From the NCBI GenBank assembly GCA_049975345.1, contig JBNGDP010000001.1:32907-96906 (forward strand): a stretch of 64,000 nucleotides of DNA, read 5' to 3'. The first letter of the stretch is position 1, and every line of letters starts with the position of its first letter. The notes under the pieces were generated by a model. That model saw nothing but the letters and a program-made list of their open reading frames with translations. It had not been told where the DNA came from and ran no database searches. Both the position numbers and the translations under genes were made by a program. This stretch comes from Oceanipulchritudo sp. (GTDB lineage Bacteria; Verrucomicrobiota; Verrucomicrobiia; Opitutales; Oceanipulchritudinaceae). This document shows positions 47,012 through 51,457 of the stretch, in pieces.

Positions 47012-47977
47012 CTACTCCGGCTGCGGGACCGTCTCGGTGATGTGGGAAAGGACCCCTTCCACGCGGCGCCGTTCCTCAAGGGGGTCGCTGCCGTGCGCGG
47101 TCGATTTGAGCCGGTGGCCGCATATGGGCACGAGCATCGCCCGCACGTCCGCGGGCAACACGAATTCCCGCCCGTGGAACAACGCCCGCGCCTGGCTTGC
47201 CGCCTTCAGGGCAAGGGCCCCGCGCGGACTGATCCCGCATTGGAAAGTGCTCTCGCTGCGGGTCGCGGCTATCAGCAGAAGAAGGTATTCCAGAACGGAT
47301 CTTTCGACAAAGACTCCGCCCACGCGTTCCTGCCAGCCGACCACCTCGCGAAGGGAAACCACGGGATCCTGTTCAATCTGGTCGTAGTGGCGGAAACCCG
47401 CATCCAGGATCTCCAACTCGTCCTCGTGGGAAGGATATCCCATTTCCAGCCGCATGAAAAAGCGGTCCATCTGGCTGTCCGGCAAGGGAAAGGTTCCCTC
47501 GAAATCCACGGGGTTCTGCGTGGCAAAGACCATGAACGGTTTTCCGATCTCGTGCGTCTTTCCGTCTATGGAAACACGGCCGCGGTCCATCGCCTCCAGA
47601 AGGGCGCTTTGTGTTTTCGGCGTGGTCCGGTTGATTTCGTCCGCCAGGATGAAACTGGCAAAAACCGGTCCGGGCTTGAACTCGAAGTCCCGCAGCTTCT
47701 CGTTGTAGACCGACACTCCGAGAACATCCGCCGGCAGGAGGTCGCTCGTGAACTGGATGCGCTGGAAACTCCCGTCCAACGCGCGGGCCAGGGCATAGGC
47801 AAGGGTCGTCTTGCCCATTCCGGGAAGATCCTCGATCAGAAGATGTCCACCGCCAAGAAGGCAAATCAGCACCTTCTCGATCACATCGCCCTTGCCGCGG
47901 ATGACCGACTCCATCCGCGCCCTCAGCGCATCCAGGGCGGTATGGATCTCCGCGGTCTTGCCCTCCTCCGTGTTCAT
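47012..47977 (-). CDS. MoxR family AAA+ ATPase
   Basis: [60 protein letters not shown]. Confidence 0.95.
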
Positions 47978-47980
47978 CTG

Positions 47981-48009
47981 AAAAAAATCCCCCTCGGGGG
48001 AGGGGGATT
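47981..48009 (-). terminator. Intrinsic terminator after the RHH/H1-like gene
   Basis: AATCCCCCT 47986-94 / AGGGGGATT 48001-09 stem, with a U-tract on the minus strand (A run 47981-87). Confidence 0.7.
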
Positions 48010-48044
48010 GTCGCAATTAATCAATGGGATAACAACCCAAGTGT

Positions 48045-48887
48045 TTACTTTTTCTTGCCAGCGCGCTTTTTCTTCGCGGCCTTTTTGACAACCTTCTTGG
48101 CGGCTTTCTTGGCCGGCTTGCGGGCTGTCTTTTTCTTCGCCGCCTTTTTGGCAACCTTCTTCTTGGCGGCCTTCTTCACGGCCTTTTTCTTGGCCGGCTT
48201 TTTCGCCACCTTCTTCTTGGCCACCTTCTTGGCAGCCTTCTTGGCAGCCTTCTTGGCCACCTTCTTCTTGGCCTTGCGGGCCACGGTCTTGCGAGCGGCC
48301 TTCTTCTTGGCGGCCTTCTTGGCGGCCTTCTTCACGGCCGGCTTTTTCGCCACCTTCTTCTTGGCGGCCTTCTTCACGGCCGGCTTTTTCGCCACCTTCC
48401 TCTTGGCGGCCTTTTTCACGACCTTTTTCCTGGCCGGCTTACGGGCCGCCTTCTTGGCAACCTTCTTTTTCGCCGCCTTTTTCGGGGCAGCTTTCTTGAC
48501 CGCCTTGCGAGCGCGCTTGGCAGCCGCCTTCTCGGCGGGTTTGGCTTTTTTTGAAGCTAACGCCATTTTCAGTTCCTTTTGTACGGTTTTTTTCGATGTG
48601 GATTCCATCAGGGATTCCAACGCCATCCGAATCAGGTGAGCCATGCTCACCTGTTCGGACTTGGAGATTTTTTCCAATGACCCACGTTTGTCGTCCGCCA
48701 ATCGAACGGAGAGTTGGCGGCGTTCGCCTCCCGCTTTGCGGGCGGTCTTCTTGTAATCGAACTGGTCGATCGCGTAGTCGATGAGTTTCGAGAAGGAAAC
48801 GCCCCCGAGATTTTTGCGGAGCTTTTCGAGACTGGACGCCAGATCGGCATCAATCTCGAAACTCAGTGGTGTAGTTTTTGATTTCAT
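48045..48887 (-). CDS. Tandem ribbon-helix-helix-like N-terminus fused to a histone-H1-like Lys/Ala-rich tail; candidate nucleoid-associated protein
   Basis: ATG 48887 with AAGGGAG SD. Two strand-helix-helix patterns (TPLSFEIDADLASSLEKL...SFSKLIDYAI; QLSVRLADDKRGSLEKIS...SMAHLIRMAL), then about 170 aa of KKAA/KKVAKK/KKPA repeats. Confidence 0.8.
   Translation of the reverse strand: MKSKTTPLSFEIDADLASSLEKLRKNLGGVSFSKLIDYAIDQFDYKKTARKAGGERRQLSVRLADDKRGSLEKISKSEQVSMAHLIRMALESLMESTSKKTVQKELKMALASKKAKPAEKAAAKRARKAVKKAAPKKAAKKKVAKKAARKPARKKVVKKAAKRKVAKKPAVKKAAKKKVAKKPAVKKAAKKAAKKKAARKTVARKAKKKVAKKAAKKAAKKVAKKKVAKKPAKKKAVKKAAKKKVAKKAAKKKTARKPAKKAAKKVVKKAAKKKRAGKKK
48321..48420. repeat. 42-bp tandem repeat in the H1-like tail
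   Basis: GGCGGCCTTCTTCACGGCCGGCTTTTTCGCCACCTTCTTCTT at 48321-62, a near-identical copy at 48363-404, and a partial third copy from 48405. Confidence 0.85.
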
Positions 48888-48928
48888 CTGCACTCCCTTG
48901 TATTGGATTCAGAATACCCGGATACAAA

Positions 48929-48956
48929 CGTTTACAATGTCTTTATGAAAATTCAA
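48929..48956 (-). promoter_or_regulatory. Putative sigma70 promoter for the RHH/H1-like gene, in an AT-rich tract
   Basis: Minus strand TTGAAT-N16-TAAACG. Confidence 0.4.
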
Positions 48957-49071
48957 CAAAAAAAGTATTGATTAATTCGTGTGCATCCATCTAACGCAAA
49001 CCGAACGTGGTTGTCCCCGGGAAGGACAGCGTCTTTTGCGCCATGAGAAATCACTACAACGAGTGGCGTCC

Positions 49072-49884
49072 TCAGGGGAGAAGGGAAAAGGAATCGACGA
49101 CGAGCTTGAGGCTTTCTCGCGTCGGACGAAGCTCCCAGTTGATCTCGTTGAACATCCATTCCCCGGCGAACTTGCCGAACCCGCCGACACGCACCCGTTT
49201 CACGAGGTTTCCGTCGAAGTCGAAAAGGGAGGCCTTGAGAAGGGCGGCGTAATCCTCGTCGACCGTCACCACCACCTTTGACGGGAACGCCTCTTTCTCC
49301 GGATTGAAAAGGGCGAAGCGATGGGCGGGCCTGCCGAGGTGACGTTCGGGCCCGAGATAGACGCGCCGTTCCCAATGCAGGTACGGCATGAGAAGATCCT
49401 GCCAGGTCACGGGAAGAAGATCCATGAAGGGTTCATGCAACTGCTCCGTGGAGAGCCGTTCCATCACGCGATTCCCGGCATCATCTTCCGCAGGAAGGAA
49501 AACCCCCTCCGGAAGGACAACGGATTCCCTGACGATGGGCCGGCCGTTGATCGGCTTGAGCGTTATGGTGGAACGTTCCCCCGCAAAGGACCAGTTTCCA
49601 TCGAGATGAAAACCATAGGACTCGGAGGACCGGTCGGGGGGGCGGTGGACCAGGGTTCCCGACAAGGCAAACCGTCCCACTTCGCGTCCGAGAAGAAAAG
49701 CGTGCCAGACGCGTTCGCCGTCCTCCTCACTCAGGACGGAGGGATCCTCCCGGTTCGGGGCCTCCCTGAATTTGAACTGCGCGTGACTGGCGTTGGAGGA
49801 AAGAAGAAGGAGCAGAAACGGGAGGACAAATGAAAACAGCCCGCCCCGGAGCAAGCGGGACGGACTGTTGCGGAAATTCATCAA
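49072..49884 (-). CDS. Outer-membrane lipoprotein-sorting (LolA-like) protein
   Basis: Signal peptide (LLLLLSSNASHA); C-terminal LLKASLFDFDGNLVKRV...GEWM pattern; exact start uncertain. Confidence 0.62.
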   Translation of the reverse strand: MMNFRNSPSRLLRGGLFSFVLPFLLLLLSSNASHAQFKFREAPNREDPSVLSEEDGERVWHAFLLGREVGRFALSGTLVHRPPDRSSESYGFHLDGNWSFAGERSTITLKPINGRPIVRESVVLPEGVFLPAEDDAGNRVMERLSTEQLHEPFMDLLPVTWQDLLMPYLHWERRVYLGPERHLGRPAHRFALFNPEKEAFPSKVVVTVDEDYAALLKASLFDFDGNLVKRVRVGGFGKFAGEWMFNEINWELRPTRESLKLVVDSFSLLP

Positions 49885-50404: not shown

Positions 50405-51457
50405 CTAGTGGAGGCCCATTTTCTCCATGATGCGCTGCAAGTCATCGTTGCCGTAGTACTCAATGATGATCCGGCCCTTTTTCGGCGTGTGTTTCAGCAC
50501 GACGCGGGTGCTGAAGGTTGAGGAAAGCTGTTTCTGAAGATCGTTGATGGCCACTTCCTCGTCCGCGGGAACCGGGGATCGCGATTTGCCGGGCCGCTCG
50601 GCCCGTGACTTGAGGCGCTCAACCTGGCGTTCGAGGTCCCGAACGCTCCATCCCCGCTCGATGGACTCGCGTGCGAGCAGGAGGCGGTTTTCGGGATTCT
50701 CCAGTCCGAGGAGCACCTTGGCATGACCAACGGAGACAAGCCCCTTGATGAGGTAGCCCTGGATCTCGCGGGCCAGCTGCAGGAGGCGCAGGGCATTGGC
50801 CACGGAGGCACGGCTGCGCCCGACCCGTTCAGCGGCCTGCTCCTGGGTGAGGTCGAAGTCCTTCATGAGGCTGGCGTACCCCATGGCCTCCTCGATGGGG
50901 TTCAGGTCTTCGCGCTGCAGGTTCTCGATGAGGGAGAGGACGGCGCTGGAGGATTCGGAGGCCTCGATCACCCGGGCCGGAATCTGTTTCAACTTCAGGC
51001 TCTGACAGGCGCGCCAGCGACGCTCGCCGGCCACCAGCTCGAACTTGTCCTCCCGCTTGCGCACCACAACCGGCTGCAGCAGTCCCTCGGACCGGATGCT
51101 GTCGGCAAGCTCCTTGAGGCTGTCCTCGGGGAATTCCCTCCTTGGCTGGTGCGGATTGGGGATGATGCGGTTGACCGCAATCTCATACAGCCCGAGGGCC
51201 GTCTCCCGCGGTTCCGCATCCTCCTTGCCCGGAAAGGGGATCGTTCCTTCCGGAAGGGTCGCGCCCGCCGATGCCGGTTGTTTCGGATCGGCCTTGGTTT
51301 TGCGCGCCGGGGCCGCCTTCTTCCTTGAATTGCTTTTCTTTTTGGCGGTTTTGCCCGGGCTTTTCGCGGTTTTTTTTCCGCCGGACGAGGGCTGCGGGGA
51401 GACGCCCCCGCTGATCAGTGAGCCCAGTCCTCTTCCCAATCCTGTCTTCTTGGTCAT
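50405..51457 (-). CDS. parB: ParB/Spo0J chromosome partitioning protein with a basic N-terminal insertion
   Basis: GLGRGLGSLI, PNPHQPRREF, LLQPVVVR, GERRWRA, ENLQREDLNPIEEA, VGRSRASVANALRLL. Confidence 0.94.
   Translation of the reverse strand: MTKKTGLGRGLGSLISGGVSPQPSSGGKKTAKSPGKTAKKKSNSRKKAAPARKTKADPKQPASAGATLPEGTIPFPGKEDAEPRETALGLYEIAVNRIIPNPHQPRREFPEDSLKELADSIRSEGLLQPVVVRKREDKFELVAGERRWRACQSLKLKQIPARVIEASESSSAVLSLIENLQREDLNPIEEAMGYASLMKDFDLTQEQAAERVGRSRASVANALRLLQLAREIQGYLIKGLVSVGHAKVLLGLENPENRLLLARESIERGWSVRDLERQVERLKSRAERPGKSRSPVPADEEVAINDLQKQLSSTFSTRVVLKHTPKKGRIIIEYYGNDDLQRIMEKMGLH

What the first reader, a model, noticed from the sequence alone, without database searches (positions are those of the whole stretch)
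48045..48887. Double ribbon-helix-helix domain fused to a histone-H1-like tail: candidate new nucleoid protein
Seen: two tandem beta-helix-helix units (about residues 5-95) precede about 170 aa of Lys/Ala/Val/Pro repeats, with its own promoter, strong SD and terminator. Known: RHH domains dimerise to read specific DNA; H1-like tails (chlamydial Hc1/Hc2, AlgP, BpH1) compact DNA non-specifically. Inference: a single-chain pseudo-dimeric RHH could target compaction to specific sites, which is relevant to the condensed nucleoids reported in PVC bacteria. I do not recall this fusion being characterised.
Basis: partly seen in the sequence, partly recalled or inferred. Interest (0 to 1): 0.75.

Follow-up and report, generated by a model that had tools for sequence, protein, structure and literature searches.

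The report
Double RHH protein with polylysine tail
This gene of a marine Opitutales bacterium encodes a DNA-binding protein made of two fused ribbon-helix-helix units and a 169-residue lysine/alanine tail; its family is found across one bacterial order and has not been studied, so a role as a nucleoid-packing protein is possible but untested.

Summary
Window 48045-48887 (-) encodes a 280-aa protein. Residues 7-97 fold as a single-chain pseudo-dimeric ribbon-helix-helix (RHH) domain. The AF2 model has pLDDT 84, and its best PDB matches are the three F-plasmid TraY chains. Residues 112-280 form a tail of 47% Lys and 31% Ala, with net charge +88.

The gene has a strong Shine-Dalgarno sequence, a genus-conserved AT-rich upstream block and a strong terminator. 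It is a single-copy chromosomal gene found in 54 of 63 Opitutales genomes searched. No full-length match was found in 238 other Verrucomicrobiota genomes.

Tail length runs from about 5 to 263 residues. One clade (f19; named family members include Opitutaceae) has almost no tail. The gene has no toxin, relaxase or ParA partner.

Most likely it is a monomeric, site-reading DNA-binding protein, probably autoregulatory, because CAATAC/GTATTG repeats flank its promoter. The polycationic tail would add non-specific DNA affinity or bridging. Bulk nucleoid compaction remains untested. Relevance to the whole PVC group is not supported.

This scan met the same family three times before on other DNA. 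It is a new variant of known kinds (TraY/AvtR-type fold; HupB/Hc2/AlgP-type tails; the RHH nucleoid protein CdbA).

The parts
48045..48887 (-). CDS of the double-RHH/polylysine-tail protein (280 aa plus TAA stop)
   Evidence: Orthologues with the same frame and start context.
48759..48869 (-). RHH unit 1 (residues 7-43): strand PLSFEI, helix A, G-x-x-S-x-S turn, helix B
   Evidence: Pfam RHH_1 stretch 8-36. AF2 gives E8-13 H14-26 H32-42. P7, F10, G28 and A39 are invariant.
48597..48722 (-). RHH unit 2 (residues 56-97): strand RQLSVRL, helix A, helix B; the most conserved part of the family
   Evidence: AF2 gives E56-61 H65-78 H82-97. Q58, S60, V61, R62, S81, R87 and A89 are invariant in 44 sequences. 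Weak CopG-family PDB matches.
48546..48590 (-). Third helix (residues 100-114) joining the domain to the tail; conserved only among close relatives
48048..48554 (-). Polycationic Lys/Ala/Val/Pro tail (residues 112-280), built from degenerate 12-54-nt DNA repeats, including a 42-nt unit at 96% identity x2.5
   Evidence: Composition. Tandem repeats. AF2: residues 133-193 have pLDDT <50, and 194-279 form a long helix of pLDDT 53-90.
48893..48899 (-). Shine-Dalgarno AAGGGAG, 5 nt before the ATG
   Evidence: Read. Conserved in the genus.
48893..48921 (-). Genus-conserved block CCGGGTATTCTGAATCCAATACAAGGGAG, holding GTATTC and an inverted CAATAC 12 bp apart; candidate operator or 5'UTR element
   Evidence: Alignment A4. 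Unique in the genome. Substitutions in relatives are not compensatory for the 5-bp hairpin, and the fold z-score is only -2.0.
48931..48971 (-). Genus-conserved AT-rich promoter-like block: TCAATAC-T7-GTTGAATTTT, a variable spacer, then TTGTAAA. Proposed -35 TTGAAT and an extended -10-like TGTAAACGT.
   Evidence: Invariant columns in A4. Not detected by the consensus scan. No TSS data.
47979..48009 (-). Intrinsic terminator (10-bp stem, 4-nt loop, T7), 36 nt after the stop. Its T-run ends 3 nt before the ATG of the downstream MoxR gene.
   Evidence: sequence

Best explanation
The gene encodes a monomeric DNA-binding protein specific to the order Opitutales.

N-terminal domain. Its 100 N-terminal residues are an internally duplicated RHH that folds as a complete 'RHH dimer' in one chain, like F-plasmid TraY and archaeal-virus AvtR. 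The two-stranded ribbon should lie in the major groove. It offers two different faces: unit 1 gives P7/S9/E11 and unit 2 gives Q58/S60/R62, the same pattern as Arc Q9/N11/R13. It would therefore read an asymmetric site without needing to dimerise.

Tail. The C-terminal tail of 169 residues and about +88 charge is disordered or helical. It would add non-specific electrostatic contacts to DNA. This raises affinity and lets one molecule hold a second DNA segment or neighbouring DNA, as shown for the Lys/Ala/Pro tails of mycobacterial Hlp/HupB and Ku.

Most likely role. The protein is an architectural regulator that binds its own promoter (CAATAC/GTATTG-type repeats) and an unknown set of further sites. 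In tail-bearing lineages it would have nucleoid-associated properties.

Shown here: the gene, the fold, the internal duplication, the tail, the phyletic pattern, the stand-alone chromosomal context and the conserved upstream block. Inferred: DNA binding, the residues that read DNA, autoregulation and bridging.
For: Fold: AF2 pLDDT 84.4, pTM 0.75. Foldseek PDB top 11 hits are chains E, F and G of the relaxosome entries 9f0x-9f12, which hold three TraY molecules: prob 0.99-1.0, TM 0.57-0.70. TraY is described as a single-chain RHH binding the major groove through beta1/beta2 (PMC12117103). BFVD top hits are tandem-RHH proteins of Sulfolobales viruses, TM about 0.7.

Sequence: Pfam RHH_1 with two stretches. 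PHROG 876 'transcriptional repressor', E=5e-8 over residues 4-103. The two halves are homologous.

Conservation is concentrated on the ribbon and on the helix-B N-caps: Q58, S60, V61, R62, S81, R87; P7, F10, G28.

Distribution: one copy in this 98%-complete genome. Found in 11 of 12 genomes of the genus and 20 of 24 of the family, and in 54 of 63 of the order.

The tail is kept in at least 7 family-level lineages. It lies on both sides of the midpoint root.

The upstream block is conserved in the genus. CAATAC/GTATTG is the most enriched hexamer in 38 orthologue upstream regions: 15 observed against 4.6 expected, z=5.1. Its density is 4.6 per kb there against 0.35 per kb elsewhere in the same loci.

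Precedents: the RHH nucleoid protein CdbA (PMC7156744), and lysine-rich tails that modulate unrelated DNA-binding proteins (PMC3553676).
Against: The hexamer enrichment rests largely on two clades whose upstream regions are alike by descent. In clade f18 it also overlaps a TTGACA-like -35 element. The conserved upstream elements occur nowhere else in the genome, so no regulon is visible.

The N-domain uses rare, AT-rich codons (lowest 5% of long ORFs), while the tail uses preferred ones (92nd percentile). This gives no clear sign of an abundant protein.

Clade f19 (named family members include Opitutaceae) has lost nearly the whole tail.

The acidic E11/D on the DNA-facing side of unit 1 is unusual for a ribbon that reads DNA.
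Confidence: 0.6

Rival explanations
1. Bulk nucleoid protein. The protein is abundant and coats or condenses the chromosome like chlamydial Hc1/Hc2 or eukaryotic H1. The RHH domain nucleates compaction at preferred sites.
For: A tail of 169 aa with +88 charge is by far the longest in the genome. Precomputed Pfam HC2 (PF07382) hits appear on several homologues. The tail is retained in most Opitutales families and is probably ancestral. The gene has a strong SD, a T-tract upstream of the -35 region and a strong terminator. CdbA shows that an RHH protein can be an essential nucleoid protein.
Against: Tail-less orthologues exist in a whole family-level clade, f19. Two normal HU genes are present. 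The tail alone matches no family in my own scans. N-domain codon usage is in the lowest 5%. There are no abundance data. In the phylum searched, full-length matches came only from one order.
Confidence: 0.2
2. Ordinary CopG/Arc-type autorepressor. The low-complexity tail is a largely neutral repeat expansion with no separate role.
For: Databases annotate the family as CopG-type. It matches a PHROG repressor family. Repeated hexamers flank the promoter. Tail length varies from 45 to 224 aa even within the genus, and DNA repeats are 96% identical, which points to recent slippage. K-rich extensions also sit on RpoD, ParB and a DksA-like protein in this genome, suggesting a general lineage habit.
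Against: A neutral expansion would not keep about 50% Lys, almost no acidic residues and preferred codons over at least 7 family-level lineages. Comparable tails measurably change DNA binding in Ku and Hlp.
Confidence: 0.15
3. Accessory protein of a mobile element or a partner system: a TraY-like relaxosome factor, a ParG/omega-like centromere binder, or a type II antitoxin.
For: The closest solved structure is TraY. ParB lies two genes away in this genus and in Ruficoccus. RHH domains are common in antitoxins and in partition proteins (established knowledge).
Against: The neighbours are housekeeping genes: Der, Fmt, LysM, ParB, SecG, a LolA-like gene, MoxR, or an aspartate aminotransferase. 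No relaxase, toxin or adjacent ParA is present. ParB linkage is absent in other families. The gene is single-copy and inherited vertically across the order. No Pfam TraY hit and no PADLOC hit.
Confidence: 0.03

Closest known systems
F-plasmid TraY (PDB 9f0x-9f12, chains E/F/G)
   Same: One polypeptide carries two RHH repeats that fold as a whole RHH dimer, and it binds DNA as a monomer. It is the best structural match (TM 0.6-0.7, rmsd 2.3 A over 93 columns). TraY occupies two direct subsites and one inverted subsite. Here direct and inverted GTAT-type hexamers flank the promoter.
   Different: Sequence identity is 14-18%, and Pfam TraY is not matched. TraY is a plasmid relaxosome accessory factor next to a relaxase. 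This gene is chromosomal, order-wide and stand-alone, and it carries a 169-aa polycationic tail that TraY lacks.
AvtR and other tandem-RHH regulators of archaeal viruses (PDB 4hv0; BFVD hits), and phage repressor family PHROG 876
   Same: Single-chain double RHH of about 100 residues. There is a sequence-level match to PHROG 876 over residues 4-103 (E=5e-8).
   Different: Those are viral proteins without a basic tail. This one is a cellular core gene.
Mycobacterial Hlp/HupB (MDP1) and Ku; chlamydial Hc2; Pseudomonas AlgP; actinobacterial TopA
   Same: A folded DNA-binding module carries a Lys/Ala/Pro low-complexity tail that modulates DNA binding, end apposition or processivity (PMC3553676; PMC7398561, abstract). 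The composition resembles the H1 C-terminal domain.
   Different: The folded module there is HU, Ku or topoisomerase, or absent altogether (Hc2, AlgP). None is an RHH. The resemblance of the tails is compositional, not homologous.
Myxococcus xanthus CdbA
   Same: [quoted passage not shown]
   Different: CdbA has a single RHH per chain and so must oligomerise. It binds c-di-GMP and has no polylysine tail. No sequence relationship was detected here.
Pseudomonas AmrZ (AlgZ) plus AlgP at the algD promoter (from my own knowledge; both are named in PMC4064291, listed)
   Same: An Arc-type RHH regulator and an H1-like KPAA-repeat protein act on the same promoter. Here both kinds of module sit in one chain.
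   Different: There they are two separate proteins, and AmrZ is a conventional dimer or tetramer.

Membership tests
Ribbon-helix-helix (Arc/MetJ/CopG) superfamily | beta-alpha-alpha unit detectable by sequence profile | tested here: met
   Pfam RHH_1 scores 24.7 bits against a cut-off of 20.5, in two stretches. RHH_3 scores 19.8 bits, below its cut-off of 21.6. Weak CopG-family PDB hits to both units.
Ribbon-helix-helix (Arc/MetJ/CopG) superfamily | Two strands pair into an antiparallel ribbon flanked by four helices | tested here: met
   The AF2 model shows E8-13 and E56-61 as the only two strands of a monomer, plus four helices, with core pLDDT above 90. This is a prediction, not a solved structure.
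Ribbon-helix-helix (Arc/MetJ/CopG) superfamily | Sequence-specific DNA binding through the ribbon | not testable with these tools
   Only indirect evidence: invariant Q58/S60/R62 and repeated hexamers upstream.
Single-chain (tandem) RHH proteins of TraY/AvtR type | Both RHH repeats lie in one polypeptide and form the dimer-like fold within the chain | tested here: met
   Foldseek matches to TraY chains have prob 1.0. The halves are homologous. A 12-residue linker spans residues 44-55.
TraY family (Pfam TraY; relaxosome accessory) | Sequence membership, and a location beside a relaxase and oriT on a conjugative element | tested here: not met
   No Pfam TraY hit at E<=10. Neighbours are housekeeping genes.
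Histone H1-like bacterial proteins (Hc1/Hc2, AlgP, BpH1) | Sequence homology to HC2 or linker-histone families | tested here: inconclusive
   The tail alone gives no Pfam or PDB hit. Precomputed PF07382 hits are listed for some homologues. Low-complexity matches of this kind are not evidence of homology.
Histone H1-like bacterial proteins (Hc1/Hc2, AlgP, BpH1) | Lys/Ala/Pro-rich polycationic composition | tested here: met
   K 47%, A 31%, P 4%, net charge +88 over 169 aa.
Nucleoid-associated protein (functional class) | High abundance, genome-wide binding and an effect on DNA compaction | not testable with these tools
Codon usage is ambiguous.
Type II antitoxin with RHH domain | An adjacent, co-oriented toxin gene | tested here: not met
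   No toxin gene is present on either side in any locus examined. NCBIfam BrnA hit has E=0.046, far below its cut-off.

The most novel reading that the evidence does not exclude
In tail-bearing Opitutales, this protein is a major chromatin component of a kind not yet described. It would be a monomeric, asymmetric-site-reading RHH that nucleates H1-like coating or bridging of the chromosome through an evolvable polylysine tail. Tail length would be tuned by lineage, for example long in marine or saline families and lost in the f19 (Opitutaceae-like) clade.
Probability: 0.15. Interest if true: 0.75.

Novelty: new variant of a known kind. Interest (0 to 1): 0.45.

Why it matters
Little is known experimentally about nucleoid proteins or transcription factors in Verrucomicrobiota.

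This family is a conserved, single-copy, order-wide DNA-binding protein. Cultured hosts exist: named hits include Ruficoccus amylovorans, Nibricoccus and Lentimonas.

It joins two known devices in one chain: a pseudo-dimeric RHH and an H1-like tail. It also offers a natural experiment, because orthologues carry tails from about 5 to 263 residues. That range lets one ask what a polylysine tail adds to a site-specific DNA binder.

If the protein proves abundant, it would add a new fold to the list of bacterial chromatin proteins. If not, it is still a clean model for monomeric RHH recognition of asymmetric sites.

It does not bear on PVC-wide nucleoid condensation, because within the phylum searched full-length matches came only from Opitutales.

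Tried and rejected
1. Sigma-70 consensus scan of 47500-49500 found no promoter. I fell back on conservation among orthologues.
2. Genome-wide search for the conserved upstream elements, for GTATTC-N6-CAATAC and for palindromic variants found no further convincing sites, so no regulon could be proposed.
3. An RNA element in the 5'UTR is not supported. There was no Rfam hit above gathering score, the fold z-score was -2.0, and substitutions in relatives are non-compensatory.
4. Codon adaptation as a proxy for expression gave opposite answers for the domain and the tail, so it is inconclusive. EF-Tu was not found in the assembly by motif.
5. A split gene in the short-tailed clade was rejected. 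No separate K-rich ORF follows the short forms; the next gene is an aspartate aminotransferase.
6. Functional linkage to ParB was rejected. That synteny holds only in this family and in Ruficoccus.
7. The + strand ORF 48055-48639 (F/L/A-rich) is the mirror image of the Lys/Ala repeats and not a gene.
8. P0136 (5796 aa, 21 stretches) in the representative search is a spurious match to a repetitive adhesin-like protein.
10. The look-up of encoding contigs found no record for P0080.
As a result there is no RNA-seq, no DnaA/oriC placement and no extended synteny for complete genomes.

Full report
OBSERVATION

The minus strand of window 48045-48887 holds a 280-codon ORF. It starts at an ATG that follows AAGGGAG by 5 nt and ends in TAA (sequence). 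A 10-bp G+C-rich hairpin with a T7 run follows 36 nt after the stop, at 48009-47986. The F/L/A-rich ORF on the opposite strand (48055-48639) is only the mirror image of the Lys/Ala repeats.

Pfam finds RHH_1 above its cut-off in two stretches, with RHH_3 just below its cut-off. NCBIfam gives nothing meaningful.

The tail (residues 112-280) is 47% Lys, 31% Ala, 9.5% Val, 5% Arg and 4% Pro, with a single acidic residue. Its net charge is +88 and the whole protein has pI 11.2. At the DNA level the tail is a patchwork of 12-54-nt repeats, including a 42-nt unit repeated 2.5 times at 96% identity.

A scan of all six frames of the 4.06-Mb assembly found only six ORFs with a Lys-rich low-complexity stretch. 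This one is by far the longest. The others are N-terminal extensions of RpoD, ParB and a DksA-like protein, a 144-aa protein, and the C-terminus of a dehydrogenase.

FOLD

An AF2 model of residues 1-116, built with a 44-sequence alignment, has pLDDT 84.4 and pTM 0.75. Its topology is beta(8-13)-alpha-alpha, a 12-residue linker, beta(56-61)-alpha-alpha, and a further helix at 100-114. These are the only two strands in a monomer model, so they must pair with each other. That makes an intrachain RHH 'dimer'.

Foldseek against the PDB puts chains E, F and G of the F-plasmid relaxosome entries 9f0x-9f12 in the first eleven places (prob 0.99-1.0, TM 0.57-0.70, best rmsd 2.3 A over 93 columns). AvtR (4hv0) and DndE follow. 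The relaxosome paper says the complex holds three TraY molecules. [quoted passage not shown]

Against predicted viral structures, the best matches are tandem-RHH proteins of Sulfolobales viruses, with TM about 0.7. At sequence level, PHROG 876 ('transcriptional repressor') matches residues 4-103 with E=5e-8.

Profiles of the two halves align in register (hhalign E=4.4e-5, 36% identity), so the domain arose by internal duplication. In that register, unit 2 offers Q58/S60/R62 on the outward face of the ribbon. This is the pattern of Arc Q9/N11/R13 (my own knowledge). Unit 1 offers P7/S9(T)/E11(D). Q58, S60, V61, R62, S81, R87, A89, P7, F10 and A39 are invariant in 44 diverse members. An invariant but asymmetric ribbon predicts an asymmetric DNA site (inference).

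A full-length model keeps the domain, with core pLDDT above 90. Residues 133-193 are disordered (pLDDT below 50), and residues 194-279 form one long helix of middling confidence. The tail alone matches no Pfam family and no PDB chain. Its likeness to H1, Hc2 or AlgP is therefore compositional.

DISTRIBUTION

Record titles of close loci name Oceanipulchritudo, Puniceicoccaceae and Opitutales. The genome (98.4% complete) has one copy. Among relatives, the N-domain was found in 11 of 12 genomes of the genus and 20 of 24 of the family.

A profile search of 301 Verrucomicrobiota genomes gave full-length matches in 54 of 63 genomes of the order. The 238 genomes outside the order gave none; four of them had weak hits covering a single unit only.

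The 5.8-billion-protein collection holds at least 804 members in the length range searched. They are named only 'CopG family transcriptional regulator' or 'Arc/MetJ-type RHH'. Cultured Ruficoccus amylovorans, Nibricoccus and Lentimonas are among the named hits. An exhaustive phmmer run over 1.84 billion cluster representatives found only 142 hits. Nearly all have the whole double RHH at the N-terminus of a 100-260-aa protein. The family is small and narrowly distributed.

TAIL EVOLUTION

Across orthologues the tail runs from about 5 to 263 residues, always about 40-60% Lys+Arg. Within the genus alone it varies from 45 to 224 residues.

In a maximum-likelihood tree of the N-domains, the short forms (102-126 aa) fall in one well-supported clade (98/96). 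This is family f19; Opitutaceae and Nibricoccus are among the named family members. Long tails occur on both sides of the midpoint root. A long tail is thus most simply ancestral and was shortened once, although the true root is unknown.

No separate Lys-rich gene follows the short forms.

CONTEXT

In the window the order on the minus strand is Der, Fmt, a LysM protein, ParB, SecG, a LolA/TP_0789-like periplasmic protein, this gene, MoxR ATPase and an NtrC-type regulator. This order holds across the genus. Ruficoccus keeps it as far as this gene, followed there by an aminotransferase.

Further away, SecG and the LolA-like gene usually remain upstream. An aspartate aminotransferase is the commonest downstream neighbour. 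ParB is no longer linked.

No toxin, relaxase or adjacent ParA appears in any locus, and PADLOC gives nothing. The genome also has two HU genes of ordinary size.

REGULATORY REGION

The consensus scan finds no sigma-70 promoter. However, an alignment of 11 genus orthologues shows three nearly invariant blocks in an otherwise free spacer:
- TCAATAC-T7-GTTG(A/T)ATTT (48948-48971)
- TTGTAAA (48931-48937)
- CCGAGTATTCTGAATCCAATACAAGGGAG (48893-48921)

A plausible reading is a T-tract, a -35 TTGAAT, a 17-nt spacer, an extended -10-like TGTAAACGT, and a 5'UTR of about 40 nt (inference; no TSS data).

CAATAC occurs at -83 and -18, and its near-inverse GTATTC at -30. These blocks are unique in the genome.

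I then took 38 orthologue upstream regions, using only one from this genus. In them CAATAC/GTATTG is the most enriched hexamer against dinucleotide shuffles (15 against 4.6, z=5.1). Over all 46 orthologue upstream regions (nine from this genus), its density is 4.6 per kb, against 0.35 per kb elsewhere in the same loci. The signal comes mainly from two clades, plus about three further lineages. In clade f18 it overlaps a TTGACA-like element. It is therefore suggestive of a conserved operator half-site, not proof.

An RNA structure in the leader is not supported.

EXPRESSION

Codon usage is contradictory. The N-domain lies in the lowest 5% of long ORFs on a scale built from EF-G, DnaK, RpoB/C, AtpD and IF-2. 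The tail lies in the 92nd percentile.

INTERPRETATION

I commit to a monomeric, site-reading RHH DNA-binding protein whose polycationic tail adds non-specific DNA contacts (confidence 0.6). Autoregulation is the most likely specific function, with nucleoid-associated behaviour in tail-bearing lineages.

Precedents exist for each element:
- single-chain RHH: TraY and AvtR
- an RHH nucleoid protein: CdbA (PMC7156744)

The combination has not been described in the literature searched.

Site-targeted compaction is untested, and relevance to PVC nucleoids in general is contradicted by the order-restricted distribution.

EARLIER NOTES OF THIS SCAN

The same family was noted and followed up three times on other genomes (e1-2187704, e1-2170017, e1-5139733). 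Those notes reached the same verdicts: an unstudied Opitutales family, TraY as the closest fold, a tail of 11-274 residues, and possible autorepression through GTATC-type sites.

I reached the fold, the distribution and the tail range independently here. I tested the operator idea only partly. In this genus the conserved repeats are CAATAC and GTATTC; GTATCC occurs once, in this genome only.

NOVELTY AND SCORE

This is a new variant of known kinds, already met repeatedly by this scan. It is real, conserved and experimentally tractable, but its function is unproven. Interest 0.45.

Noticed in passing
window 47975-48009 (-): The T-run of the terminator ends 3 nt before the ATG of the downstream MoxR ATPase gene (47977). 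The descending stem (GAGGGGGA) is the only SD-like sequence for that gene. MoxR may therefore be expressed by read-through, with its ribosome-binding site masked when the hairpin forms. The pairing of this gene with MoxR is conserved in the genus.
   Followed up: no
window about 49040-49060 (-), just after the stop of the LolA-like gene: A further block, TGTAGTGATT(n)TTCATG, is conserved in 9 of 11 genus orthologues about 150 nt upstream of the start codon. The genome search found only distant look-alikes, each with three mismatches. Its function is unknown.
   Followed up: partly
genome contigs C91, C64, C12, C14, and window 50405-51457 (ParB): Shorter Lys/Ala-rich extensions (48-90 aa) sit on the N-termini of RpoD, a DksA/TraR-type zinc-finger protein, ParB and a 144-aa protein. 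One also sits on the C-terminus of a short-chain dehydrogenase. Polycationic extensions on DNA- and RNA-polymerase-associated proteins may be a habit of this lineage.
   Followed up: partly
protein P0173 (377 aa, metagenomic): A relative carries two complete double-RHH modules in tandem, and possibly a third degenerate one, in a single chain, followed by a short basic stretch.
   Followed up: no
window 48552-48887 compared with 48048-48551: Codon usage differs sharply inside one gene. The RHH domain uses AAA, GAA, GCG and TTG (lowest 5% of long ORFs). The tail uses AAG and GCC (92nd percentile).
   Followed up: partly
window 49072-49884 (-): A 270-aa secreted LolA/TP_0789-like protein lies between SecG and this gene across much of the order. 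No functional link to a DNA-binding protein is apparent.
   Followed up: partly
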